From a virus (Duplodnaviria; Heunggongvirae; Uroviricota; Caudoviricetes): a stretch of 9,623 nt of DNA. The notes under the pieces were generated by a model, which was given only the letters and a program-made list of their open reading frames with translations, did not search any database and was not told the DNA's origin. Location of the stretch: IMG/VR virus record IMGVR_UViG_2802429248_000004, positions 1-9,623 of that record. One strand, written 5' to 3'. This document shows, piece by piece, positions 1 through 9,623 of this stretch (positions within the stretch are counted from its first letter, which is position 1; each line of letters starts with the position of its first letter). Position numbers and translations under genes: made by a program.

Positions 1-141
1 TTACTGCTTACACTGTAAGAACGCCGCAAACTCCGCTCCCCAGAAGCTCATCCGTATTTCGCACAGCGAACCGTGCAACATCCAGATGATGAGGATTGCC
101 GTCACGCAGAACGTGATGGCCGTAAGCGATTTTTGCGACAT
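1..141 (-). CDS. Hok/Gef-family type I toxin (small membrane peptide), 46 aa
   Basis: Reverse-strand ORF ATG at 139-141, TAA at 1-3, translated by hand as MSQKSLTAITFCVTAILIIWMLHGSLCEIRMSFWGAEFAAFLQCKQ. Hydrophobic N-terminal segment followed by SLCEIR and EFAAFLxCK closely matches the Hok family pattern as I recall it (R1 Hok ...SLCEIR...EVAAF...; HokA ...WMIRDSLCEL...ELAAFLACK). AAGGAG Shine-Dalgarno about 8 nt upstream on the coding strand. Not in the supplied ORF track because it is under the length cut-off. Confidence 0.7.
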   Translation of the reverse strand: MSQKSLTAITFCVTAILIIWMLHGSLCEIRMSFWGAEFAAFLQCKQ

Positions 142-271
142 AGCACTTGCTCCTTTTCCGGAGAGGCGCTAACCTTTCACTTGTCAAGGTAATGCGGTTA
201 GGGCCTCGGTTAAACAGAAATGTTTTCCGGGGCCTTTCCACATCTGGCCTTCGGGTATTCCCTCCGACCAT
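8..271 (-). CDS. mok-like reading frame overlapping hok in another frame (putative translational coupler); possibly not translated
   Basis: 87-aa ORF from the track covers the whole hok ORF in a different frame and starts about 130 nt upstream, which is the hok/mok architecture known from plasmid R1. No convincing SD before the ATG at 269-271; no sequence similarity claimed. Confidence 0.2.
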   Translation of the reverse strand: MVGGNTRRPDVERPRKTFLFNRGPNRITLTSERLAPLRKRSKCYVAKIAYGHHVLRDGNPHHLDVARFAVRNTDELLGSGVCGVLTV

Positions 272-331
272 CAGCCGAAAGGCACCCGCGCGTAATCTAT
301 CTCTTTTTTGTTACTCCGGCAATTCTGCCTG

Positions 332-592
332 TTAATTTTGAGGTAAGGGCAAACTCATCTGATTGTTTCCTTTGTGTGAAGCTGGCAGTTCATGCCACGG
401 GATACCTTCTGAAGAGTGAGCGCCGGAGGCGTGTTTCGATGTGAATTTATGGAAAGCTTCCAGTGTTGAGAAGCATACGCCGCATTCTAGGTTGTTACAT
501 TGGTAATACTTTTGCCGCACGGTGTTTGAATCATTTTCCGGACGACTGGTGCGGATTCGGGCAGATGCGCCACAAAGCGGACAACGGAACAT
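332..592 (-). CDS. ogr: Ogr/Delta-family zinc-finger late-gene transcription activator
   Basis: 86-aa ORF beginning MFRCPLCGASARIRTSR...YYQCNNLEC, matching the P2 Ogr N-terminus (MFHCPLC...ARTSR...HQCQNVNC) with the four-Cys zinc-finger spacing. Strong SD AAGGGAGG 5 nt upstream of the ATG on the coding strand (plus-strand 596-603). Confidence 0.9.
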   Translation of the reverse strand: MFRCPLCGASARIRTSRPENDSNTVRQKYYQCNNLECGVCFSTLEAFHKFTSKHASGAHSSEGIPWHELPASHKGNNQMSLPLPQN

Positions 593-622
593 AGCGACCT
601 CCCTTACTGTGGTGCTTCTGTG

Positions 623-651
623 ATTTTAAGTCCTACTAGTACAGATTCCAA
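623..651 (-). promoter_or_regulatory. putative sigma70 promoter for ogr (-35 TTGGAA, 17-bp spacer, -10 TAAAAT on the minus strand)
   Basis: Hexamers read by eye on the reverse complement of 623-651, placed about 20-30 nt upstream of the ogr SD. No experimental support. Confidence 0.25.
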
Positions 652-776
652 CTGGCAAGGTGTTTTTAATAAGGAATGGTCGAAATCTTTACATGGTGAT
701 GAGTTTTTCCGAAAATAGCTCCACCCAACTTACTAGTGTATTTACAATAAATTTTATTTTAGTTCTGGAGTGTGAA

Positions 777-2015
777 ATGATATCGTTTATAACGAATAAT
801 ACAGGAGTTGTATTTAAGTATGAACCTGAAATAGGGAGTGTAAATTGGGTATGGAATGAATTTGAAACTAAAGAAACTGTAAGTATTTCTAAAGTGTTTC
901 ATTTCTATATTAGCGATTTGCTCAATTCCCCTTTACCTAACCAAGATTTTAATGATTATGCTTATGAGTTCCAATTCGGGACTTTTAGTGATGATTATAT
1001 TTTGATAAAGGGTCGTATATTAAATATTAAAAACGACTTGTATATTAGTAAAGATATCAAATTAAGTCGGGCAACCTTTGTTGCTGAGAGAAATGTTTCT
1101 ATTTTTGGTGGAATTTCGCGAATATTAAATCACAGTGACCCAATTTTTATTGGTGGAGAGGTTAAGGAGGCAATTCCTTCTGAAGTTTTTAGTGAGTTAC
1201 TGAGCAAATTTCCTAATTCATATGAATTGAATAACTATGCTAAGGCTAGAGTACACACAATTCTTGAACTATATTTAGATGGTATGAGAGATGCTCGAAG
1301 ACTTTACGATGCATACCTCAACAAAATAAAGCTAAAGAAAAAAAACAAACTTGATTTAAGCTGTATTAAAAAATTAGAGGTGGATAAATATATTTTTATT
1401 AGAGATAGCATTAAAAATGCTTTAGATACAAAGCAGAACATGTCTGAAAAAGAGTGGCAAGAACTGATGGTGCAGTTCCTTCCCCTTTTATTTCCCAAAT
1501 ATATTCTTGTGATAGAAAGCATCACTATCCATGATTACTATAGTTTTCCTGGCAAGAAAAGGAAACGATTCATAGATATAGGTTTGGTTGATGCTTGTGG
1601 CAATTTAGATATTATTGAAGTAAAAAAACCATTTGACAATAAGATATTGCGCAAGGCTAAGTATCGAGAGAATAACATACCAACTCCAGAGTTAAGTGGT
1701 AGTATTATGCAAGCTGAAAAATATCTCTTTCATTTATCAAAATGGGGAAGAAAAGGTGAAGATATCCTTACTAAAAAATATGCATCCAGACTACCTGATG
1801 GAATGAGTATTCATATTTCGTATCCCAAAGCGATTCTCATTATTGGTCGTGACCAGATTGATGATAGATATATGACAGAAGATCAAAAACTCGATTTCGA
1901 AATTATTAAGCGGAAATATACTAATATGATCGATATCATTACCTATGATGACCTCTTGAGACGGCTTGATCATACAATTTCAGCACTTACACTTAAAAAC
2001 GAAGCATCTGTGTAG
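777..2015 (+). CDS. AT-rich cargo gene: predicted PD-(D/E)xK nuclease, Shedu (DUF4263)-like candidate anti-phage defence protein; N-terminal half unassigned
   Basis: Long ORF in markedly AT-rich DNA between phage genes D and ogr. Track ORF starts at GTG 660, but ATG 777 has a GGAG SD 6 nt upstream and is preferred (alternative ATG 693). C-terminal half carries EKEWQELMVQFLPLLFP, then FIDIGLVD-x5-LDIIEVKKP (D ... E-V-K catalytic core, nt ~1575-1625), then MQAEKYL (QxxxY, nt ~1710-1724), then ILIIGRD and a terminal IITYDDLLRRL, a combination I recognise from DUF4263/Shedu nucleases. Stop TAG at 2013-2015. Confidence 0.75.
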   Translation: MISFITNNTGVVFKYEPEIGSVNWVWNEFETKETVSISKVFHFYISDLLNSPLPNQDFNDYAYEFQFGTFSDDYILIKGRILNIKNDLYISKDIKLSRATFVAERNVSIFGGISRILNHSDPIFIGGEVKEAIPSEVFSELLSKFPNSYELNNYAKARVHTILELYLDGMRDARRLYDAYLNKIKLKKKNKLDLSCIKKLEVDKYIFIRDSIKNALDTKQNMSEKEWQELMVQFLPLLFPKYILVIESITIHDYYSFPGKKRKRFIDIGLVDACGNLDIIEVKKPFDNKILRKAKYRENNIPTPELSGSIMQAEKYLFHLSKWGRKGEDILTKKYASRLPDGMSIHISYPKAILIIGRDQIDDRYMTEDQKLDFEIIKRKYTNMIDIITYDDLLRRLDHTISALTLKNEASV

Positions 2016-2057
2016 AAAGAAGAGTTTTGGTCTGGTGCGTCAACATAACGTTTGAAA

Positions 2058-2083
2058 CGTCCGCTTCTTTCACGAAGCGGATT
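2058..2083. terminator. candidate bidirectional stem-loop between the convergent cargo gene and gene D
   Basis: Inverted repeat TCCGCTTC (2060-2067) / GAAGCGGA (2074-2081) with a 6-nt loop; moderately U-rich flanks on both strands; lies in the 129-bp gap between two convergent stops. Confidence 0.3.
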
Positions 2084-2144
2084 CTCGGGTTAGCATTGTT
2101 CTGTGCTATAAACTTGGCAGTTTGAGTCAGCATATCTAAGTTAT

Positions 2145-3245
2145 TTACTCTGTTTCTGCTATCCATTCCGGGATTTTTGCCTCAAGCTCAAGCTGCGTGG
2201 TAAAGCCACTGTTATCAATGGTGTGCTCGGCTTTTGCAATAATCCAGCCCTGATTATCAATCTCGCTTTTAAATCCTGTTACCGTGCCATGCATTTCGGG
2301 GTAGAGTTCTGCACGTCCACGTGCCAGCGTGATGGAGAATGATGCGGCTCCGCGTTGTAGCTGCTGCCACTTTGCCGCCGCTGCACGTCTTGCTGCCTGC
2401 TCGTTCTGATAAGTCTTGCGTAACACAAACACGTTGCCTTCCGCACCTTCCATATAGTCACCTTCACGGCTGCTGCTTTTCTCCTTTTTCGGTTTGCGGC
2501 GTTTCACGCTGACTTTTTTCTTTTTCCCGTAATTAAGATCAAGCCAGTAAGCGCGTACCCCCGTATACGCTTCGCGGTCAGCAATGCGGAACTGATGGCG
2601 ATCGCCACTGCTGCGCGTGATGGCGAACGAGGGCAACGGCTGGCCCTGTGCGTTCACGCCACCGCCTGGCATGATGAATAACAGATTACCGCTTTTTACC
2701 GTAGTGATTGCGCCCAACATTTCCGCCATGCGCGTAAGGAAGGACATGTCGCTTTCTTCGGTCTGGTCGGCGTGGTCGATTTCAATATCCATCAGCATTT
2801 CGCTGATTTGCGGTTTCAGACCGTACCGATGAGCGATGGCGGATACCACGCGCTCAACGGTCACATCATGCCAGGACACTTCACGTTTAACGTTAAATTC
2901 ATCCCGAAAATCTGCGCTTCTGGCTGAAACAGTCAGCCTGTCCGGCGGTCCTTCGTGAGCGATTTCATCAACAATGTAAGTGCCTTTTTCTGTCAGCGGT
3001 TCTCCTTTCCAGCCAATGAGAACCGTCAGGCGCGCGCCCCGTGGCGGTAGCTGCAACTGACCATCTGCATCATCCAGCGTGATGGTAAGCTGGTCCGCCT
3101 CAAATCCCCGGTTGTCGGTCAGTGACAGGCTCATCAGGCGTTCTGCCACGCCGGACAGCGTTTTACCCTCCGCGAGAATATCAAAATCCGGCATTTTCAC
3201 GGGGTCTGTGCTCTGACTGAGCAATTGCATGGTGGTATCGGTCAT
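2145..3245 (-). CDS. D: P2 gpD-family late control / tail protein D
   Basis: Translation shares extended blocks with P2 gpD as I recall it (LTDNRGFEADQL, SWHD, FLTR, GVRAYW, REGDYMEGAEGNVF, SGFTTQLELE). Track ORF extends to 3377, but the ATG at 3243-3245 (MTDTTMQLL...) is preceded by a very strong SD (AGGGAGGGAG on the coding strand, plus-strand 3246-3258). Stop TAA at 2145-2147. Confidence 0.9.
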   Translation of the reverse strand: MTDTTMQLLSQSTDPVKMPDFDILAEGKTLSGVAERLMSLSLTDNRGFEADQLTITLDDADGQLQLPPRGARLTVLIGWKGEPLTEKGTYIVDEIAHEGPPDRLTVSARSADFRDEFNVKREVSWHDVTVERVVSAIAHRYGLKPQISEMLMDIEIDHADQTEESDMSFLTRMAEMLGAITTVKSGNLLFIMPGGGVNAQGQPLPSFAITRSSGDRHQFRIADREAYTGVRAYWLDLNYGKKKKVSVKRRKPKKEKSSSREGDYMEGAEGNVFVLRKTYQNEQAARRAAAAKWQQLQRGAASFSITLARGRAELYPEMHGTVTGFKSEIDNQGWIIAKAEHTIDNSGFTTQLELEAKIPEWIAETE

Positions 3246-3402
3246 CTGCTCCCTCCCTGTGCGGCATGGTCGCATGTGTGTGCGGGCGGGGTTACTGCTT
3301 TTTGTTGTCGCCGGGCGGCAAGAACGGCGCAGGGGTGAGATTACGCGCGTGGTGGGTGATGATTGTTGCCGAATCATTTAACGGATACAAGGGGCTGAAG
3401 CT

Positions 3403-4587
3403 ATGAGTGAAACTCGTTTTCATGGTGCCCGTGTTACGGAAAATACCGACCTGGTAACAGCGATTAACGATGTTGATTCCAGCGTTATCGGTATCGTGGC
3501 AACGGCGGATGATGCGGACGCGAAGCTGTTCCCGCTGAACAAGCCCACACTGCTGACCCGCGTCAATGACGTGCTGGGAAAATGCGGAACAACGGGGACG
3601 CTTTATCGTGCGCTTAAGGCCATCGCAGACCAGGTGAGCACAAAGGTGATCGTCGTTCGCGTGGCTGAACACAAAGAAGAAGACGGAAAGACGCAGGATC
3701 AACTGGTTATCGGTGGTTCTGAGGATGACGGCAGCTATACGGGGATGTATGCGCTGCTTGTTGCAGAGCAGGATGAAAGCATCGGATACCGTCCGCGTAT
3801 TCTGGCCGCGCCGGAGCTGGACACGGAGGCGGTGACAAAATCCCTGTGCGTGATTGCGGGTAAACTGCGCGCGTTTGTGTATGCCTCATGTCACGGCTGT
3901 AACACGATGGCTGAAGCGATTACCTACCGCCAGAAATTCAACGAACGTGAAGTGATGCTCTTGTGGCCGGACTTCATCGCCTACAACCCGAAAGGTGGCG
4001 AAAACGAAACGTTCCCCGCGCCTGCCTATGCGTGCGGCCTTCGTGCGTACATTGACCATGAGCAGGGCTGGCACAAATCGCTGTCCAACGTTCCGGTTAA
4101 AAATGTGCTGGGGATGTCCAGGCATGTGTTCTGGTCGTTACAGGCCGAAGACAGCGATGCCAACAGCCTCAACAACAAAGAAATCACGACCATTATTCGT
4201 CGCAACGGGTTCCGCTTCTGGGGCAACCGCACACCGGAAACGAACGCCTACATCTTTGAGGTGTATACCCGAACCGCACAGGTGCTGGCTGATTCAATTG
4301 CGGAAGCGCAGTTTGAAACCATCGACAGTCCACTGACGCCTGCGAACGTGAAGGATGTTATCAGTGCCATCAGGGCAAAGCTGGATTCACTGGTTACTGC
4401 CGGGAAACTGATTGGCGCGGAGTGCTGGTATGACGTGGTGGATAACAGCACCACGGATTTACGTCAGGGGCGTGTGCGTATTCGCTACAAATATACGCCC
4501 GTTCCGCCACTGGAAGACATGGAGCTTTACCAGACGTTTACTGATGAATACTTTGAACCCGCATTTGCGGTGTTGGGAGGTGCCTGA
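3403..4587 (+). CDS. FI: contractile tail sheath protein (P2 FI family)
   Basis: 394 aa; strong similarity to P2 FI throughout as I recall it (DADA..FPLNKP, RILA.PELDTEAV, KLRAF.YAS.HGC, GWHK.LSNV, IRR.GFRFWGNRT, YTPVPPLE). SD AAGGGG 9 nt upstream. Confidence 0.95.
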   Translation: MSETRFHGARVTENTDLVTAINDVDSSVIGIVATADDADAKLFPLNKPTLLTRVNDVLGKCGTTGTLYRALKAIADQVSTKVIVVRVAEHKEEDGKTQDQLVIGGSEDDGSYTGMYALLVAEQDESIGYRPRILAAPELDTEAVTKSLCVIAGKLRAFVYASCHGCNTMAEAITYRQKFNEREVMLLWPDFIAYNPKGGENETFPAPAYACGLRAYIDHEQGWHKSLSNVPVKNVLGMSRHVFWSLQAEDSDANSLNNKEITTIIRRNGFRFWGNRTPETNAYIFEVYTRTAQVLADSIAEAQFETIDSPLTPANVKDVISAIRAKLDSLVTAGKLIGAECWYDVVDNSTTDLRQGRVRIRYKYTPVPPLEDMELYQTFTDEYFEPAFAVLGGA

Positions 4588-5099
4588 TGGCTGTGCCAAA
4601 ACATCTTCGCTTTTTTACGCTGTTTGTGGATGGTGAAAACGAAGTGGGTAAGGTGACGTCCGTCACTCTGCCTAAGCTGACGCGCAAAACCGACAGCTAC
4701 CGGGGTGGTGGCATGATGGGGGCGGTAAGTATTGATCTCGGTCTGGACGACTCCGCGCTTGATGCGAGCTTTGTCATGGGGGGCGCAGTTCGTGAGCTGT
4801 TCCTTAAGTATGGCGGCACGATTGACGGCACGCTGCTGCGTTTTGCGGGTGAATACTACACCGATGCAGAAAGCGACCTGTATGAAGTCGAAATGCGCGG
4901 ACGTGTGACGGAAATTGATATGGGGGAAGCCAAACAGGGCGAAGCCACATCACACACTTACGCCATTAAAAACACCTACTACAAGCTGAGTGTTAACGAT
5001 CGCCCGTTGTGGGAGATTGACCTGCTGAACTTCATTTACCGGAAGGACGGCAAGGACATTGCGCCCGATCGCATCCGTTCCGCGCTTGGGCTTGGCTGA
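4587..5099 (+). CDS. FII: tail tube protein (P2 FII family)
   Basis: 170 aa; ATG overlaps the FI stop (TGATG); SD GGGAGG 6 nt upstream; similarity to P2 FII (VTSVTLPKLTRK..YRGGGM, LRFAG.Y, EIDMGEAKQGE). Double stop TGATAA. Confidence 0.95.
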   Translation: MAVPKHLRFFTLFVDGENEVGKVTSVTLPKLTRKTDSYRGGGMMGAVSIDLGLDDSALDASFVMGGAVRELFLKYGGTIDGTLLRFAGEYYTDAESDLYEVEMRGRVTEIDMGEAKQGEATSHTYAIKNTYYKLSVNDRPLWEIDLLNFIYRKDGKDIAPDRIRSALGLG

Positions 5100-5154
5100 T
5101 AAGTAATATGCAGGCGGCGCAGTGCGTCGCCTCTGACTGAAAAGGAGACCACTG

Positions 5155-5529
5155 ATGAAAAACATCGATACTGAAACCCAGAATAACACCGTGGCGGATG
5201 ATGTGACGGCAGATGAGGATATGGCTGTCGAACGTGGTGTAAAACTTTCCCGGCCAATTGAGCGTGGCGGCGAAAAAATCACGTATGTGGAGATCACCGG
5301 GGCTATTGAGCAGGCTGGATCCCTGCGAGGTTTGTCGCTGTCTGATGTGCTGAATCTGAAAGCGGATACCATGTTCACGCTGTTGCCTCGCGTGACTTCG
5401 CCACGACTGGATGAAGTGATGATTAAAAAAATGTCGTCACGCGATTTTATTCAGTTGTGCGCTGTGGCTGTAAATTTTATGAGCGAGCCAGACTCTGGCG
5501 CGAAGAGCGTGCAGGAGACGGCAGCGTAA
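5155..5529 (+). CDS. E: tail assembly chaperone gpE (P2 E family)
   Basis: 124-aa ORF with AGGAG SD 7 nt upstream; sits between tube and tape-measure genes as in P2/lambda (E or G chaperone position); its 3' end overlaps an RBS-less ORF in the -1 frame. Confidence 0.85.
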   Translation: MKNIDTETQNNTVADDVTADEDMAVERGVKLSRPIERGGEKITYVEITGAIEQAGSLRGLSLSDVLNLKADTMFTLLPRVTSPRLDEVMIKKMSSRDFIQLCAVAVNFMSEPDSGAKSVQETAA

Positions 5530-5693
5530 TCACCCTGGTGTGCTTTGAGCACATCGAAGATCTGGTGGCGGATATTGCCGCCATTTTTAACTGGTCGCCC
5601 GCCGAAATCTTCATGATGACGCCCGGCGAAGTGGTTAGCTGGCGTGAGCGGGCGGCACTTCGCAGCGGGAATGCAGACAATGAAGACTCTTGA
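5427..5693 (+). CDS. gpE' extension, expressed as an E+E' fusion by programmed -1 ribosomal frameshift
   Basis: The -1 frame relative to E is open from 5427 (just after a TAA at 5424-5426) to TGA at 5691-5693 and has no credible independent start or SD; it overlaps the 3' end of E and ends at the tape-measure start. This mirrors P2 E/E' and lambda G/GT. Candidate slippery sites in the E frame: A7 run at 5425-5431 and A-AAT-TTT at 5472-5478. Confidence 0.5.
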   Translation, partial: KNVVTRFYSVVRCGCKFYERARLWREERAGDGSVITLVCFEHIEDLVADIAAIFNWSPAEIFMMTPGEVVSWRERAALRSGNADNEDS

Positions 5694-8487
5694 TATCCGG
5701 GTCGCTTTCAGCGCCGTTGACAGGCTGACCCGGCCTGCCGAAAACGCCCGCCGCCTGATGGGGCAGTTTGGTGACTCTATCCAGCGAACGCAGGGGGCGA
5801 TCAAAAATCTCGAGCGTCAGGCGCGTTCATTTGAGCGCGCCCGTGACGCTGTCAGTAAAGCGGATGCGGGCATCGTAAAAGCACGACGCCAGCTTAACGC
5901 CCTTAATCAGTTACAACGCACGGGTACAGTGCTCAGCGAAAAACAGCAAAAGCTGATGCAGCAGTTAAGCACCCGGCTTGAACGCCTGAATGAATCGCGC
6001 ACACGGGAAATTCAGAAAATGCGGGAGCTTGGCGGAGAGCTGAAACGCCACGGCATTTCCCTGACAGGCAGCGATAACACCATCCAGCAGACCATCAGAC
6101 GCACCGAACAGTACAACAACCAGCTTGAACGCGAACGGCAGGCGCTTGCGCGTGTAACGCGGGCGCGTGAGCGGTATTCGCGCGCGCAGGAAATTGCGGG
6201 AAAACTGAAAACAGGTGGTGCGCTGGCAATTGGTGCGGCAGCGGCTGGCGGTTATGCCGCCGGGCGTTTTTTGCAGCCTGCGATCGGGTTCGGGAAAGAG
6301 ATGTCCCGCGTTCAGGCGCTGACGCGAATCGACAAAAACAGCCCGCAGTTTAAGGCGCTGCGTGAGCAGGCGTTAAAACTTGGCTCTGAAACGCAGTTCA
6401 CCGCAGGCGATGCCGCCAGTGGACAGGCATTTCTTGCAATGGCTGGCTTCACTCCGCAGGCCATTCAGGCTGCGCTTCCCGGCGTACTGAGCATGGCAAC
6501 GGCTGGCGGTATGGATCTCGGCGAGACGGCAGATATTGGCTCAAATATCCTGACGCAGTTCGGCCTTTCTGCTGACCAGATGGACCGGGTCGGTGACACA
6601 CTCACCGCAGCGTTTACCCGTACCAACACTGACCTTCGCGCACTGGGCGAAACCATGAAATATGCAGGTCCGGTGGCGGGTAAGCTGGGAATATCGCTGG
6701 AGCAGGCCGCAGCGATGGCTGGCGTGCTGGCGAATATGGGCATCAGAGGGAGTGATGCCGGGACGGCAATGCGTGCCAGCCTGGCTCGTCTGGCATCACC
6801 GCCAAAGGCAGCGGCAGAAGCGCTGAAAGAGCTGGGCGTGTCCGTCTCGGATGCCGGGGGCAAAATGCGCCCGATGGAAGATCTGCTGGCTGACCTTTAT
6901 AAAGCTACCCGCAAATACGGGGAAGTTGACCGGGTATCCTTCTTTAAGGACATCGCCGGGGAAGAGGCTTTCACATCGTTTATGGCACTCGTTGATGCGG
7001 CGGGTGACGGTTCCTTACCCAAACTGAGAAAAGAACTTGAGGGCGCACGCGGTGAGGCTGAACGCACGGCAAAGGTTATGGCCGACAACCTTGATGGCGA
7101 CCTGAAAAATCTCGACAGCGCATGGGAAGGTCTTCGTATTCGCATCAGTGATCTGGTTGACGGTTCGCTGCGTTCTGTCACGCAGTGGCTAACGCGGGTG
7201 GTCTCAAAAGTGACGGCACTGGCGCAGGCCCATCCTGTACTGACGCGCCAGCTACTGATTGCAGGCGGTGCGCTGCTGGCAGTGACTGCAACCGTAGGCT
7301 CGTTGTCGCTTGCTCTTGGTGTGCTTGCTGGCCCACTGGCAAAACTGCGTCTTGGTTTTTCCCTCCTGACCGGATCAATGAATGCTGTCAGGCTCCTGCC
7401 TGCACTATGGGGAATGGTGACGGGTTCCGTTTCGTTACTGGGGGGCGCTATCGGGGCGCTGTTCAGCCCGGTCGGATTGATTGCTGCTGCGTTTGTGGCT
7501 GCGGCAGTTCTCATCTGGAAATACTGGGAACCCATCAAGGCGTTTTATGCCGGGGTGTTCAGTGGGATTATGGAACGGCTGGCTCCGTTGCGCGAAACCT
7601 TTGAACGGTTCGGTCCTGTTTTTGATGTCGTGCGCGATGGGATTATTCAGGTCTTTAACTGGTTTAAATCGCTGCTGTCACCGATGGAGTCCAGCAAGGA
7701 AACGCTGGATAAATGTACCAGTGCTGGCGAGATATTCGGTAACGTTCTTGGTGGCGCGCTACAGCTTGTTCTGACGCCTGCAAAAATGTTGCTGGATACG
7801 CTGGCGTGGATACTTGAAAAACTTGGCGTCCTTCCGGATGAAGCGGAAAGGGCGCGCAAGAAAATCGAAGACGCGCAGCGTGCGGCCATTCTTCAGGATA
7901 AGGTCGCTCTGTTTCAGGGAGACATTGCGAAAATCAATCCGCCGAAGCCTGTGGAAAATGGCAATGGCACCGGAGGTGATAACCCCAAAGACAACAAACC
8001 GCTCACAGACAGCAATACCGGTACGCTACGCAGACTAAGCAAAATTGCTGATAACACAGGCAAGCTGGTTGATGAGACGAAAAAACGCATTGGCCCCGGT
8101 GATATTGTCTTTAAGAACCTGCCCCGCGCACTTGCCGTTCGTGGGGAGTGGCAGGATCGGAAGATTGCGCAGGCCAGTAAGCCTGCTCCCGCAATTAATA
8201 TCACCCCCGTGGTTCCGGCTCCGCTGCCTCCGGCGCTGGTCCCTGTTGTTGCGGCCAGCTCCCGCCCGGTGGCGGAGGCCATACGATCGCCAGTGGCATC
8301 AGTTCCTGCAACTTCCCGTAACCGGGAGCCTGTTACCTCCGGATTTGGTGGTGAAATTCATGTCCATCTGCATAACGTTGTTACGCAGAATCCCCGCGAA
8401 CTGGCGAAACTGGTCGGTGAAATGGTCAGGGCAGAATTGGAACGACGCGACCGTGCCGGACGTGGCAGTTTTTACGATAAAGATTGA
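5680..8487 (+). CDS. T: tail tape measure protein (P2 gpT family)
   Basis: ~935-aa ORF directly after E/E'; coiled-coil-like N-terminal third, a central block of hydrophobic/Gly-Ala-rich segments, and a Pro/Ala-rich C-terminus, typical of tape measure proteins. Start uncertain: ATG 5680 (preferred, GGGA about 9 nt upstream), ATG 5671 or GTG 5644 in the same frame. Confidence 0.9.
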   Translation: MKTLDIRVAFSAVDRLTRPAENARRLMGQFGDSIQRTQGAIKNLERQARSFERARDAVSKADAGIVKARRQLNALNQLQRTGTVLSEKQQKLMQQLSTRLERLNESRTREIQKMRELGGELKRHGISLTGSDNTIQQTIRRTEQYNNQLERERQALARVTRARERYSRAQEIAGKLKTGGALAIGAAAAGGYAAGRFLQPAIGFGKEMSRVQALTRIDKNSPQFKALREQALKLGSETQFTAGDAASGQAFLAMAGFTPQAIQAALPGVLSMATAGGMDLGETADIGSNILTQFGLSADQMDRVGDTLTAAFTRTNTDLRALGETMKYAGPVAGKLGISLEQAAAMAGVLANMGIRGSDAGTAMRASLARLASPPKAAAEALKELGVSVSDAGGKMRPMEDLLADLYKATRKYGEVDRVSFFKDIAGEEAFTSFMALVDAAGDGSLPKLRKELEGARGEAERTAKVMADNLDGDLKNLDSAWEGLRIRISDLVDGSLRSVTQWLTRVVSKVTALAQAHPVLTRQLLIAGGALLAVTATVGSLSLALGVLAGPLAKLRLGFSLLTGSMNAVRLLPALWGMVTGSVSLLGGAIGALFSPVGLIAAAFVAAAVLIWKYWEPIKAFYAGVFSGIMERLAPLRETFERFGPVFDVVRDGIIQVFNWFKSLLSPMESSKETLDKCTSAGEIFGNVLGGALQLVLTPAKMLLDTLAWILEKLGVLPDEAERARKKIEDAQRAAILQDKVALFQGDIAKINPPKPVENGNGTGGDNPKDNKPLTDSNTGTLRRLSKIADNTGKLVDETKKRIGPGDIVFKNLPRALAVRGEWQDRKIAQASKPAPAINITPVVPAPLPPALVPVVAASSRPVAEAIRSPVASVPATSRNREPVTSGFGGEIHVHLHNVVTQNPRELAKLVGEMVRAELERRDRAGRGSFYDKD

Positions 8488-8499
8488 GGAGTCATGGCC

Positions 8500-8988
8500 A
8501 TGATGATGATCTACGGCATGTTTGTTTTTGAGCTGCGCACATTGCCGCATCAGCAGTTACAGCAAAATAAAAGCTGGCGACATGTGAAAAATGAACGCGT
8601 TAACCGTTCAGCAAGCTGGCAGTATATCGGGGCTGGCGATGATCGTATTGTTCTTTCTGGTGTGCTTTATCCTGAAATTACAGGTGGCGAAGTGTCGCTG
8701 TCTCTGCTGGCCACGCAGGCGTATACCGGACGCCCCTGGCCTCTGATTGATGGCGTCGGGCAGATTTACGGCATGTATGTCCTGACCGAAACGAATACGA
8801 CCCGTTCCGAGTTTGATCGCTACGGTAAGGCGAAAAAGATAGAATTTTCACTGACCCTTGAACGCTGTGATGAGGATTTGCGGGAGCGCCTGCAATCCTC
8901 ATCGTTCAGCGATATGCTGTCCGGCTTCAAAGATAAGGTCACATCATCCCTTAACAGCGCGGCCAGCTCCGTTAAAGGGTTGTTTTGA
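8500..8988 (+). CDS. U: tail protein gpU (P2 U family, tail terminator/tube-completion)
   Basis: Similarity to P2 gpU (MMM..G.FVF.L.T.P.Q.LQ...W.H, ITLSG.LYPE.TGG, IYGM.V). GAGGAG SD at 8486-8491 fits the ATG at 8500 (the MMM start, as in P2 U) better than the track start at 8494. Confidence 0.9.
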   Translation: MMMIYGMFVFELRTLPHQQLQQNKSWRHVKNERVNRSASWQYIGAGDDRIVLSGVLYPEITGGEVSLSLLATQAYTGRPWPLIDGVGQIYGMYVLTETNTTRSEFDRYGKAKKIEFSLTLERCDEDLRERLQSSSFSDMLSGFKDKVTSSLNSAASSVKGLF

Positions 8989-8995
8989 CTTAATG

Positions 8996-9027
8996 CAAAA
9001 CCGCTAATAAACATATTGGCGGTTTTG
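8996..9027. terminator. bidirectional rho-independent terminator-like hairpin between convergent gpU and tfa
   Basis: 14-bp stem CAAAACCGCTAATA / TATTGGCGGTTTTG with one G-U position and a 4-nt loop AACA; A-tract on one side and T-tract on the other; lies in the 59-bp gap between the U stop (8988) and the tfa stop (9048). Confidence 0.45.
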
Positions 9028-9047
9028 TTCCTTAAATCATCTTGCCT

Positions 9048-9623
9048 TTACACTAATTCTGGCCATTCGATATCAGGGGCATTTTCCGGCTGAACGCGAT
9101 TCAGTAGCACACGGTATTTTTTCCAGTGTGTCAGGCTTAACTTTTCTTCCTCGGTAGCCATATCTAAATCGACAGCATCCTGCAGCATGGCAATGATTTC
9201 ACCTGCATATGCAATCTGCTCTTTCTTCTGAGACTCAGCCGCTCTGACAAGTGCATCACGCTCTGCATTCTCATCATTCACCCACGCATTGCCGTTCCAT
9301 TTCTGATAATCCCCCTCCGGGGAAATGGCTGTCACGTCTGGAGGTAATGCGCCAAGTTCAGAGATATAAATGGCTGCTCCCGTTTTCGTTTCATAGACGG
9401 TCTTTCCGCGATGGTCTTCCATCAGTTCCCATTTCATTTCATCTGCATTGAAAACGGCTGCATAACCCGCCGGAATATCAGGCGGTGCAATATCTGTACT
9501 GTTTGCAGGCAGACCTGTATGCGGCGGAATATATGCGTCACTTTCACCAATAAATTCATTGGTTCCATCAAGTAAATTGAAAACGCGGATCGTTTGTGCT
9601 TCTGCACTCATTCTGAAAGCCAT
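9048..9623 (-). CDS. tfa: tail fibre assembly protein (Tfa; TfaE-like N-terminus with a P2 gpG-like C-terminus)
   Basis: 191 aa; N-terminus [53 protein letters not shown] closely matches E. coli TfaE-type proteins as I recall them; C-terminus ([18 protein letters not shown]...PDIEWPE) resembles P2 gpG. The start codon is the last three bases of the window, so the upstream region and the tail fibre gene itself are out of view. Confidence 0.9.

What the first reader, a model, noticed from the sequence alone, without database searches (positions are those of the whole stretch)
1..331. Hok/Gef-family toxin with a mok-like overlapping frame directly next to the prophage end
A 46-aa peptide with the Hok signature ends at window position 1-3, and an overlapping ORF in another frame (8-271) recreates the hok/mok arrangement. 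A Sok-like antisense RNA would be expected on the plus strand around 200-320 but I could not define its promoter or terminator with confidence. The expected hok mRNA leader and promoter would overlap the 3' end of ogr (stop at 332), so either the locus is prophage-borne cargo (as relBE-hokD is in the Qin prophage) or the prophage integrated next to, and possibly truncated, a chromosomal hok locus. The prophage-host junction (attR) should lie in this interval.
Basis: partly seen in the sequence, partly recalled or inferred. Interest (0 to 1): 0.5.

Follow-up and report, generated by a model that had tools for sequence, protein, structure and literature searches.

The report
Prophage-borne hok/sok toxin-antitoxin cassette
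The left end of the window carries an ordinary Hok-type membrane toxin gene with its antisense-RNA antidote, a small self-contained cassette that rides inside a common P2-like (P88-type) E. coli prophage next to ogr; it is not the prophage-host junction, which lies further left, outside the window.

Summary
The 46-aa ORF at 141..1 (- strand) is a real Hok/Gef peptide: Pfam PF01848 scores 29.9 bits against a cut-off of 22. Its leader (287..128) matches the Rfam hok/sok leader model with E = 8e-10, though below the gathering score.

Window 1-340 is 94-98% identical to P88-like phages (Xuanwuvirus). About 82% identity links it to a cassette downstream of lom in Stx phages.

Comparing 69 variants places these features:
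- hok promoter: -35 at 322..317, -10 at 299..294, predicted +1 at G287.
- Predicted Sok antisense RNA on the + strand at about 181-238, not 200-320.
- A 5' element (tac) whose 3' partner (fbi) lies about 60 nt beyond the window's left edge.

The hok promoter abuts the ogr stop codon (334..332) but does not overlap it.

A mok-like frame crosses the hok start in only 29 of 69 variants.

In the closest relatives the att core is a 25-nt copy of the ihfA terminator that begins 264 nt left of window position 1. A relative integrated at a different site keeps ogr-hok. The locus is therefore phage cargo, not a truncated chromosomal hok, and attR is not in 1-331.

This is an uncharacterised member of a well-known kind. 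Interest is low.

The parts
1..141 (-). hok-family toxin CDS, 46 aa (MSQKSLTAITFCVTAILIIWMLHGSLCEIRMSFWGAEFAAFLQCKQ); stop codon at 3..1
   Evidence: ORF list. Pfam HOK_GEF 29.9 bits vs cut-off 22. NCBIfam Hok models hit only below their cut-offs. 40 of 44 unique homologous CDS keep 46 codons; dN/dS is about 0.2-0.4, and dN = 0 at dS = 0.34 in closer copies.
150..153 (-). hok Shine-Dalgarno GGAG, 8 nt upstream of the ATG
   Evidence: Sequence check. It is paired with the upstream CUCC in the fold of the full-length homologous mRNA.
160..169 (-). anti-SD strand (GCGCCUCUCC) that sequesters the hok SD in a hairpin
   Evidence: Fold. Helices 6 and 7 are paired in 100% and 84% of cells across 67 variants.
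147..175 (+). predicted Sok promoter: -35 TTGCTC (147-152), 17-nt spacer, -10 TAACCT (170-175)
   Evidence: Placed by position from the R1 hok/sok layout as recalled from memory. Only the hokW probe sequence in PMC8621323 is a cited source; it shows TTGCCT-N17-TAACC on the antisense strand. The -10 complement is invariant in 67 variants (entropy 0.00). The consensus scan does not call it.
181..238 (+). predicted Sok-like antisense RNA (~55-60 nt): single-stranded 5' tail 181-199, hairpin 200-236, short U tail; both ends are uncertain by a few nt
   Evidence: Fold -27.5 kcal/mol, z = -5.25. The hairpin is kept in 46 of 46 variants with three alternative upper stems. It is more stable on this strand than on the hok strand in 20 of 20 variants, -21.8 vs -13.7 kcal/mol. 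No canonical T-run terminator was found.
176..199 (-). hypervariable block of the hok leader, the target of the Sok 5' tail
   Evidence: Mean column entropy 0.63 bits, against 0.00-0.16 in the flanking leader segments.
8..241 (-). mok-like overlapping frame counted from the in-frame GUG at 241..239. There is another in-frame UUG at 187..185.
   Evidence: AUGUG at 243..239 is invariant and preceded by GAAGG. An ORF from this AUG or GUG crosses the hok ATG in 29 of 69 variants, ends at the anti-SD/SD in 16 and ends earlier in 24.
279..287 (-). predicted hok mRNA 5' end (+1 = G287) and tac element GGGUGCCUU
   Evidence: Rfam model position 1 aligns at 287. The element is complementary to AAGGCACCC 57-65 nt past the hok stop in relatives. 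The 5'-3' closure is the outermost helix of the full-length fold, z = -6.8. The fbi motif is found 63-68 nt past the stop in 58 of 67 scorable unique full-length loci.
294..322 (-). predicted hok promoter: -35 TTGCCG (322..317), 17-nt spacer, -10 TAGATT (299..294), 6 nt to +1
   Evidence: TTGnnn and TAnAnT hexamers stay at the same positions in at least 8 unrelated upstream contexts while the spacer and upstream sequence differ. The consensus scan does not call it: 8 of 12 matches.
332..592 (-). ogr (late-gene activator) of the prophage, immediately upstream of and co-oriented with hok; context, not part of the cassette
   Evidence: Pfam Ogr_Delta 52.3 bits. No terminator-like site was found between ogr and hok.

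Best explanation
Window 1-322 holds most of a hok/sok-type type I toxin-antitoxin cassette. It is part of the genome of a P88-like (Xuanwuvirus, P2-related) temperate phage and sits between ogr and the phage attachment site.

Shown by computation:
- The - strand encodes a Hok-family peptide of 46 aa under purifying selection.
- Its ~145-nt leader is homologous to the hok mRNA leader.
- In relatives the predicted mRNA 5' end (GGGUGCCUU) is complementary to a 3' element about 60 nt past the stop codon, and the full-length RNA folds closed.
- The hok SD is buried in a hairpin.
- The + strand carries a conserved hairpin that is markedly more stable in the antisense orientation, preceded by a hypervariable single-stranded tail.

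Inferred from the R1 hok/sok paradigm (established knowledge, Gerdes and co-workers):
- The stable hok mRNA is made from its own weak promoter and kept inert by the tac-fbi closure.
- A short, unstable Sok RNA of about 55-60 nt, made constitutively from the opposite strand, pairs with the leader. It blocks translation and triggers cleavage.
- When Sok synthesis stops (loss of the prophage, host transcription shut-off by an infecting phage, or prophage induction), the 3'-trimmed mRNA refolds and Hok is translated. Hok inserts in the inner membrane and collapses membrane potential.

Which biological role applies here is not decided by my data. The candidates are prophage addiction, abortive infection, or help with lysis as reported for hokW-sokW in Sp5. 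Coupling through a mok-like leader ORF is possible in this window but is not a conserved feature of the subfamily.
For: - Toxin: Pfam HOK_GEF is above its cut-off. The ORF is intact in 40 of 44 unique CDS with dN/dS below 1.
- Leader: the Rfam RF01794 match covers the whole model, E = 8e-10.
- mRNA fold: the full-length homologous mRNA closes 5' to 3' and sequesters the SD, z = -6.8. The fbi motif sits at a fixed distance in 58 of 67 scorable unique full-length loci.
- Sok: hairpin z = -5.25, kept in 46 of 46 variants, and more stable on the antisense strand in 20 of 20.
- Structure: 92% of cells are paired in the proposed leader helices, against 23-53% when the 3' partners are slid.
- Promoter: the hexamers keep their positions across unrelated upstream contexts.
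- Phage-borne:
  - 94-98% identity to P88-like phage records, with hok lying between ogr and int.
  - 25-nt att cores flank a 37.65-kb prophage in strain A24 with hok inside.
  - K-12 has an empty site.
  - The same ogr-hok pair occurs at a second integration site.
- A different hok/sok locus in an Stx prophage was shown experimentally to be a type I TA (PMC8621323).
Against: - There is no expression or toxicity data for this subfamily.
- The Rfam score (49.4) is below the gathering score (59).
- The consensus scan calls neither promoter and finds no terminator for Sok. The tail after the hairpin is only UUUCC.
- True compensatory changes are few: 3 pairs, not better than shuffles. The structure rests mainly on conservation and G-U changes.
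- The mok element that defines R1-type control is not conserved.
- The window stops at the hok stop codon, so the fbi element and terminator cannot be checked for this particular genome. Its source was not found.
Confidence: 0.85

Rival explanations
1. The locus is a chromosomal hok locus next to which the prophage integrated, possibly truncating it, so that the prophage-host junction (attR) lies within 1-331.
For: hok is the last gene before the window edge and sits just beyond ogr, which is the last gene before att in P2 (from memory of the P2 map). The window edge looks like an end.
Against: - In the 98%-identical A24 and O26:H11 copies, host sequence (the ihfA terminator) begins 264 nt beyond the hok stop. 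The 25-nt att core is repeated at the int end, 37,654 nt away.
- K-12 has only 100 nt and no hok between ihfA and btuC.
- Phage records carry hok between ogr and int.
- A relative integrated next to flk keeps ogr-hok, plus two further phage genes before the junction.
- The cassette's own 3' element lies left of the window.
Confidence: 0.03
2. The cassette is a decayed, non-functional hok relic, like most chromosomal hok loci of E. coli K-12. It is carried passively by the prophage.
For: The promoters are weak by consensus and there is no canonical Sok terminator. No mok is conserved. At least one copy (L086) is interrupted after +41 by foreign DNA.
Against: - The ORF is intact and under purifying selection.
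- The tac, fbi, SD hairpin, Sok hairpin and promoter hexamers are all retained across 69 variants and in two unrelated phage backbones.
- The ogr-hok arrangement is found in 1158 of 5426 complete E. coli genomes.
Confidence: 0.1
3. The 87-aa ORF (271..8) is a genuine mok-type or independent protein-coding gene, and it is the primary translated frame.
For: It is open in the window and in about a third of variants. It contains in-frame GUG (241) and UUG (187) codons.
Against: - It has no Pfam hit.
- Its ATG lies 16 nt from the predicted mRNA 5' end, inside the tac stem, with no SD.
- One SNP closes it in O26:H11.
- Indels shift the frame among variants that have identical Hok.
- Synonymous change in the hok frame is frequent, which is incompatible with selection on the overlapping frame.
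Confidence: 0.05

Closest known systems
hok/sok (parB) of plasmid R1, the prototype type I toxin-antitoxin system
   Same: - Hok-family peptide with the SLCEIR...AAF motif (Pfam).
- A leader of about 145 nt that matches the Rfam hok/sok leader model over its full length.
- 5'-3' fold-back of the mRNA and a buried SD.
- An antisense hairpin RNA gene with a single-stranded 5' tail.
- By my recollection of the R1 sequence, a Sok promoter whose -35 overlaps the hok SD region.
   Different: - The peptide is 46 aa rather than 52.
- There is no start codon at the position of the R1 mok start (7 nt after GAGG), and no conserved mok frame.
- It is carried by temperate phages, not a plasmid.
- The Rfam score is below the gathering threshold.
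hokW-sokW of Stx2 prophage Sp5 (E. coli O157:H7 Sakai), shown experimentally to be a type I TA that speeds phage release (PMC8621323)
   Same: It is a prophage-borne hok/sok module. RefSeq phage records label the window's homologue "MokW-like host killing". The antisense strand of the hokW probe sequence shows the same TTGCCT-N17-TAACC arrangement.
   Different: It is a different locus. HokW is 51 aa and starts MKQQKAM, and its leader starts GGGUGCUUGAGGCU (primers). The window's Stx-phage relative (82% identity) sits elsewhere, downstream of lom. No function has been tested for this subfamily.
Chromosomal hokA-hokE loci of E. coli K-12, including relBE-hokD in the Qin prophage
   Same: Same peptide family. 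The best NCBIfam model is HokA. hokD is likewise prophage cargo (from memory).
   Different: It is not an orthologue: 34 bits against the HokA equivalog cut-off of 89. From memory (Pedersen and Gerdes 1999), the K-12 loci are mostly inactivated, whereas this cassette is intact in most copies.

Membership tests
Hok/Gef toxin family (Pfam PF01848) | Peptide of about 50 aa that scores above the curated family threshold, with an N-terminal hydrophobic helix and a conserved C-terminal motif | tested here: met
   29.9 bits vs gathering score 22, residues 7-44 on profile positions 5-42 of 42.
Hok/Gef toxin family (Pfam PF01848) | Kills or arrests cells when expressed, by damaging the inner membrane | not testable with these tools
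   Needs induced expression. Only purifying selection (dN/dS 0.2-0.4) speaks for function.
hok/sok-type type I TA locus (R1 parB paradigm) | mRNA leader homologous to the hok leader / Sok target (Rfam RF01794) | tested here: inconclusive
   Full-length match 287..128, E = 8e-10, but 49.4 bits against a gathering score of 59.
hok/sok-type type I TA locus (R1 parB paradigm) | Cis-encoded antisense RNA gene (own promoter, 5' tail, terminator hairpin) opposite the leader | tested here: inconclusive
   The hairpin at 200-236 (+) has z = -5.25, is kept in 46 of 46 variants, and is more stable on the antisense strand in 20 of 20. The -10 is invariant. However, both hexamers match consensus at only 3 of 6 positions, there is no T-run, and the consensus scan is negative. 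Transcription was not tested.
hok/sok-type type I TA locus (R1 parB paradigm) | Fold-back inhibition: the mRNA 5' end (tac) pairs with a 3' element (fbi) | tested here: met
   Met in relatives only. GGGUGCCUU pairs with AAGGCACCC 57-65 nt past the stop as the closing helix of the MFE fold, and the motif is present in 58 of 67 scorable unique full-length loci. In the window itself only the 5' half (287..279) is present; the 3' half lies beyond the edge.
hok/sok-type type I TA locus (R1 parB paradigm) | mok: an overlapping reading frame that starts inside the Sok target, reads across the hok start, and is needed for hok translation | tested here: inconclusive
   The window has an open frame (271..8), but its ATG is outside the Sok target and is not conserved. 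No start codon sits at the R1-equivalent position. A frame from the invariant AUGUG (243..239) crosses the hok ATG in only 29 of 69 variants.
HokA equivalog (NCBIfam NF007290); HokW of Sp5 | Orthology to a named Hok protein | tested here: not met
   34 bits vs cut-off 89 for HokA. HokW is 51 aa with a different N-terminus and leader.
Prophage-host junction (attR) within 1-331 | An att core repeated at the other prophage end, with host sequence beyond it | tested here: not met
   In A24 the core AAAGAAAAAAGGCCGCAGAGCGGCC lies at L004 43679-43703 and 6025-6049. The hok stop is at 43415. The K-12 alignment diverges right after the ihfA terminator. The window's own left flank is not available.

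The most novel reading that the evidence does not exclude
This phage-borne Hok subfamily may work without a conserved mok. Control may instead come from a short leader ORF started at an invariant dual-frame AUGUG, or directly from Sok-triggered cleavage. The hypervariable 20-25 nt block that encodes both the Sok 5' tail and its target may act as an address code. Such a code would let several near-identical cassettes on co-resident prophages (up to 7 matching places per genome) be regulated without cross-talk.
Probability: 0.25. Interest if true: 0.45.

Novelty: new member of a known kind. Interest (0 to 1): 0.2.

Why it matters
The finding corrects the map of this window. The prophage does not end at position 1, the toxin's mRNA is cut by the window edge, and the hok gene belongs to the phage.

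The cassette is very common. The ogr-hok arrangement occurs in about a fifth of complete E. coli genomes, and a related copy sits in Stx phages. Yet this subfamily has never been tested, so it is a cheap candidate for asking what hok/sok modules do for temperate phages: lysogen addiction, exclusion of other phages, or lysis timing.

None of this changes what is known about how type I toxin-antitoxin systems work.

Tried and rejected
- **Short-protein locus search.** I used a 20-nt DNA pattern from the leader instead. This fixes the first 20 nt of every variant, so tac variation could not be studied.
- **Source genome.** An exact 36-mer from the ogr-Shedu junction found nothing in genome contigs or viral contigs. 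No complete E. coli genome covers window 1-2200. The window's real left flank therefore stays unknown.
- **Consensus scan.** The promoter/terminator scan of 1-700 found neither the hok nor the Sok promoter and no terminator. These elements rest on positional homology and conservation only.
- **Covariation test.** On 67 variants, pairing is high but compensatory changes are no better than shuffles. I rejected it as proof of structure.
- **hokW identity.** I considered that the locus is hokW-sokW itself, because RefSeq calls it \"MokW-like\". I rejected this because the published HokW differs in length, N-terminus and leader.
- **Literature.** Searches for hok with ogr and prophage, and for Xuanwuvirus, gave nothing on this locus.
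- **Species scan.** The scan of GTDB representatives gave only 5 hits, three of them probably contamination. It says little about host range.

Full report
**What is in the sequence.**
- The - strand of window 1-141 holds a complete 46-aa ORF, MSQKSLTAITFCVTAILIIWMLHGSLCEIRMSFWGAEFAAFLQCKQ, with its stop codon at 3..1.
- It passes Pfam's curated threshold for HOK_GEF: 29.9 bits against 22, E = 4e-7. NCBIfam's HokA and Hok-subfamily models hit only far below their cut-offs. It is a family member, but not an orthologue of a named K-12 Hok.
- An 87-aa ORF in another frame runs 271..8 (- strand) and has no family hit.
- ogr (Ogr_Delta, 52 bits) runs 592..332.
- Rfam's hok/sok leader model RF01794 matches 287..128 (- strand) over all 157 model positions. 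The score is 49.4 bits, E = 8e-10 for the 1-kb search, below the family's gathering score of 59.

**Where the window comes from.**
- The rest of the window is a P2-like tail module: gpD (-), sheath, tube, E, tape measure and U (+), and a tail-fibre assembly gene (-).
- Window 1-651 is 98% identical to chromosomal prophages in many E. coli. 1158 of 5426 complete genomes have a place covering at least 80% of window 1-700, that is, ogr plus hok.
- Window 1-340 is 94-98% identical to phage records of the P88 group (genus Xuanwuvirus, Peduoviridae), where RefSeq calls the ORF "MokW-like host killing".
- About 82% identity links it to a cassette in Stx phages, where it sits downstream of lom.

**The junction question.**
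- In strain A24 (and in O26:H11 11368) the prophage lies between btuC and ihfA.
- A 25-nt direct repeat, AAAGAAAAAAGGCCGCAGAGCGGCC, flanks it 37,654 nt apart. One copy sits beside int and the other beside ihfA. This repeat is the ihfA terminator.
- K-12 has a single copy of it and only about 100 nt between ihfA and btuC. The alignment with A24 breaks exactly after that terminator.
- The hok stop codon lies 264 nt inside the prophage from the attR core.
- In strain 266917_2 a related prophage sits next to flk instead, still with ogr-hok, followed by two more phage genes before host DNA.
- In the P88_4B11 record hok lies between ogr and the int-side genes.

So hok is phage cargo next to the attachment site, and the chromosomal-locus alternative is refuted. 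By inference from these relatives, attR is not in 1-331.

The window's left edge coincides with the hok stop codon. I read this as provirus trimming at a gene boundary. I could not find the window's own source: the ogr-Shedu junction is absent from all the collections I searched.

**Anatomy of the cassette.** A scan with the first 20 nt of the leader returned 119 viral-contig stretches, and a later genome scan added 5 more. With the loci already held and the window, these gave 69 unique variants of the 286-nt core (one search gives the first, smaller count).
- *hok promoter.* Upstream of the leader, TTGnnn and TAnAnT hexamers stay at fixed positions in at least eight unrelated sequence contexts.
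  - This gives -35 TTGCCG (322..317), a 17-nt spacer, -10 TAGATT (299..294) and +1 at G287, where the Rfam model also starts.
  - The ogr stop is at 334..332, so the promoter abuts ogr but does not overlap its coding sequence.
  - No terminator-like site separates ogr from hok, so read-through from ogr is possible.
- *5'-3' fold-back.* The full-length homologous RNA from A24 folds with its 5' GGGUGCCUUUCGGCU paired to a 3' stretch containing AAGGCACCC, 57-65 nt past the stop. The hok SD (153..150) is paired to an upstream CUCC, and a terminator follows. The fold has z = -6.8. Of the 69 unique full-length loci, 67 could be scored, and 58 of them have the 3' motif 63-68 nt past the stop. This is the tac/fbi arrangement of R1 hok mRNA (established knowledge). 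Its 3' half lies outside the window.
- *Sok candidate.* On the + strand, TTGCTC (147-152), 17 nt, TAACCT (170-175) sits where, from my memory of the R1 sequence, the Sok promoter lies. The hokW probe sequence shows the same TTGCCT-N17-TAACC arrangement on its antisense strand.
  - The -10 complement is invariant in 67 variants.
  - An RNA starting near 181-183 would have an 18-20 nt tail and a hairpin at 200-236: -27.5 kcal/mol, z = -5.25.
  - The hairpin is retained in all 46 distinct versions, with three different upper stems.
  - Because of G-U pairs it is more stable on the antisense strand than on the hok strand in 20 of 20 versions, mean -21.8 against -13.7 kcal/mol. That asymmetry argues that the + strand RNA is the selected one.

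Sok is therefore best placed at about 181-238, not 200-320.

**Weak points.**
- The consensus scan finds neither promoter and no terminator. The tail after the hairpin is only UUUCC.
- A formal pair count shows 92% pairing, against 23-53% for slid controls. But only three pairs show double changes, no better than shuffles.

**mok.**
- A single SNP closes it in the O26:H11 copy, and indels shift frames among variants with identical Hok.
- Where R1 has its mok start (7 nt after GAGG, from memory of the R1 sequence) there is no start codon here.
- An invariant AUGUG (243..239), preceded by GAAGG, offers starts in two frames. An ORF from one of them crosses the hok ATG in 29 of 69 variants (including the window, from GUG241), ends at the anti-SD/SD in 16 and ends earlier in 24. 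The third frame almost always stops early.
- Synonymous change in the hok frame is common, so the overlapping frame is not under protein-level selection.

I score mok as inconclusive. Translational coupling may exist in this window, but a conserved mok is not a feature of the subfamily.

**Function.** Hok is under purifying selection: dN/dS about 0.2-0.4, dN = 0 at dS = 0.34 for closer copies, and 40 of 44 CDS are intact at 46 codons. By analogy with R1 hok/sok, I take the cassette to be an active type I toxin-antitoxin module (confidence 0.85). The experimentally proven hokW-sokW of prophage Sp5 supports the analogy, although it is a different locus of 51 aa starting MKQQKAM (PMC8621323). Whether it stabilises the lysogen, aborts infection by other phages or accelerates lysis cannot be decided here.

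**Novelty.** The gene is already annotated as Hok/Gef in RefSeq. I found no paper on this subfamily or on hok in P88-like phages. It is an uncharacterised member of a well-known kind, and interest is low. The only mildly unusual features are the lack of a conserved mok and a hypervariable block (176-199). That block encodes both the Sok tail and its target, and has an entropy of 0.63 bits against 0.00-0.16 in the flanking leader.

Noticed in passing
window 600-2100 (ORF 660-2015 +; likely start ATG 777): A Shedu defence gene (SduA) sits in a 28-34% GC island between ogr and gpD. It scores 691 bits on the PADLOC SduA model and 109 bits on Pfam SduA_C. At the same spot relatives carry HxsDBCA (A24, O26:H11), a 340-aa hypothetical protein (strain 266917_2) or nothing (phage P88_4B11). 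This looks like a variable cargo or defence hotspot of P88-like prophages. The Shedu insert was not found at this position in any complete E. coli genome.
   Followed up: partly
window 176-199 (- strand); alignment A2 columns ~143-170: The leader block that encodes both the Sok 5' tail and its target is hypervariable among cassettes whose Hok peptide is identical. At least 8 distinct versions exist, between invariant flanks. Up to 7 matching places occur in one genome. This may be diversification of antisense specificity. I did not test whether co-resident copies differ.
   Followed up: partly
Provirus boundary calling seems to cut this prophage family at the hok gene. That cut removes the hok 3' UTR (fbi, terminator), any further cargo genes and attR.
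   Followed up: yes
L086 8434-8720: One cassette copy is interrupted after leader position +41 by unrelated DNA starting TGAAGTGGTCAACAAAAACTGGCC, which looks like the end of an insertion sequence. It recalls the IS-inactivated chromosomal hok loci of K-12 (from memory). It was not identified.
   Followed up: no
window 2145-9623; L004 31382-32651: The sheath-tube-E-T-U block is on the opposite strand to gpD and to the tail-fibre assembly gene, unlike the P2 order as I remember it. In A24 a partial second tail-fibre assembly gene lies next to U, which might mark an invertible or recombined tail-fibre segment.
   Followed up: no
L005 516-3085; L131 3509-4739: Between hok and the attachment site some relatives carry extra genes that A24 lacks, namely a TagO-like 297-aa protein, a zinc-ribbon protein and small ORFs. 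This is a second variable region at the prophage end.
   Followed up: no
L126, L128, L129: Exact matches to the E. coli phage hok leader occur in assemblies labelled Xanthomonas pisi (an 857-nt contig), a Sphingobacteriaceae MAG and Vagococcus sp. These are probably contamination or mis-binning.
   Followed up: no
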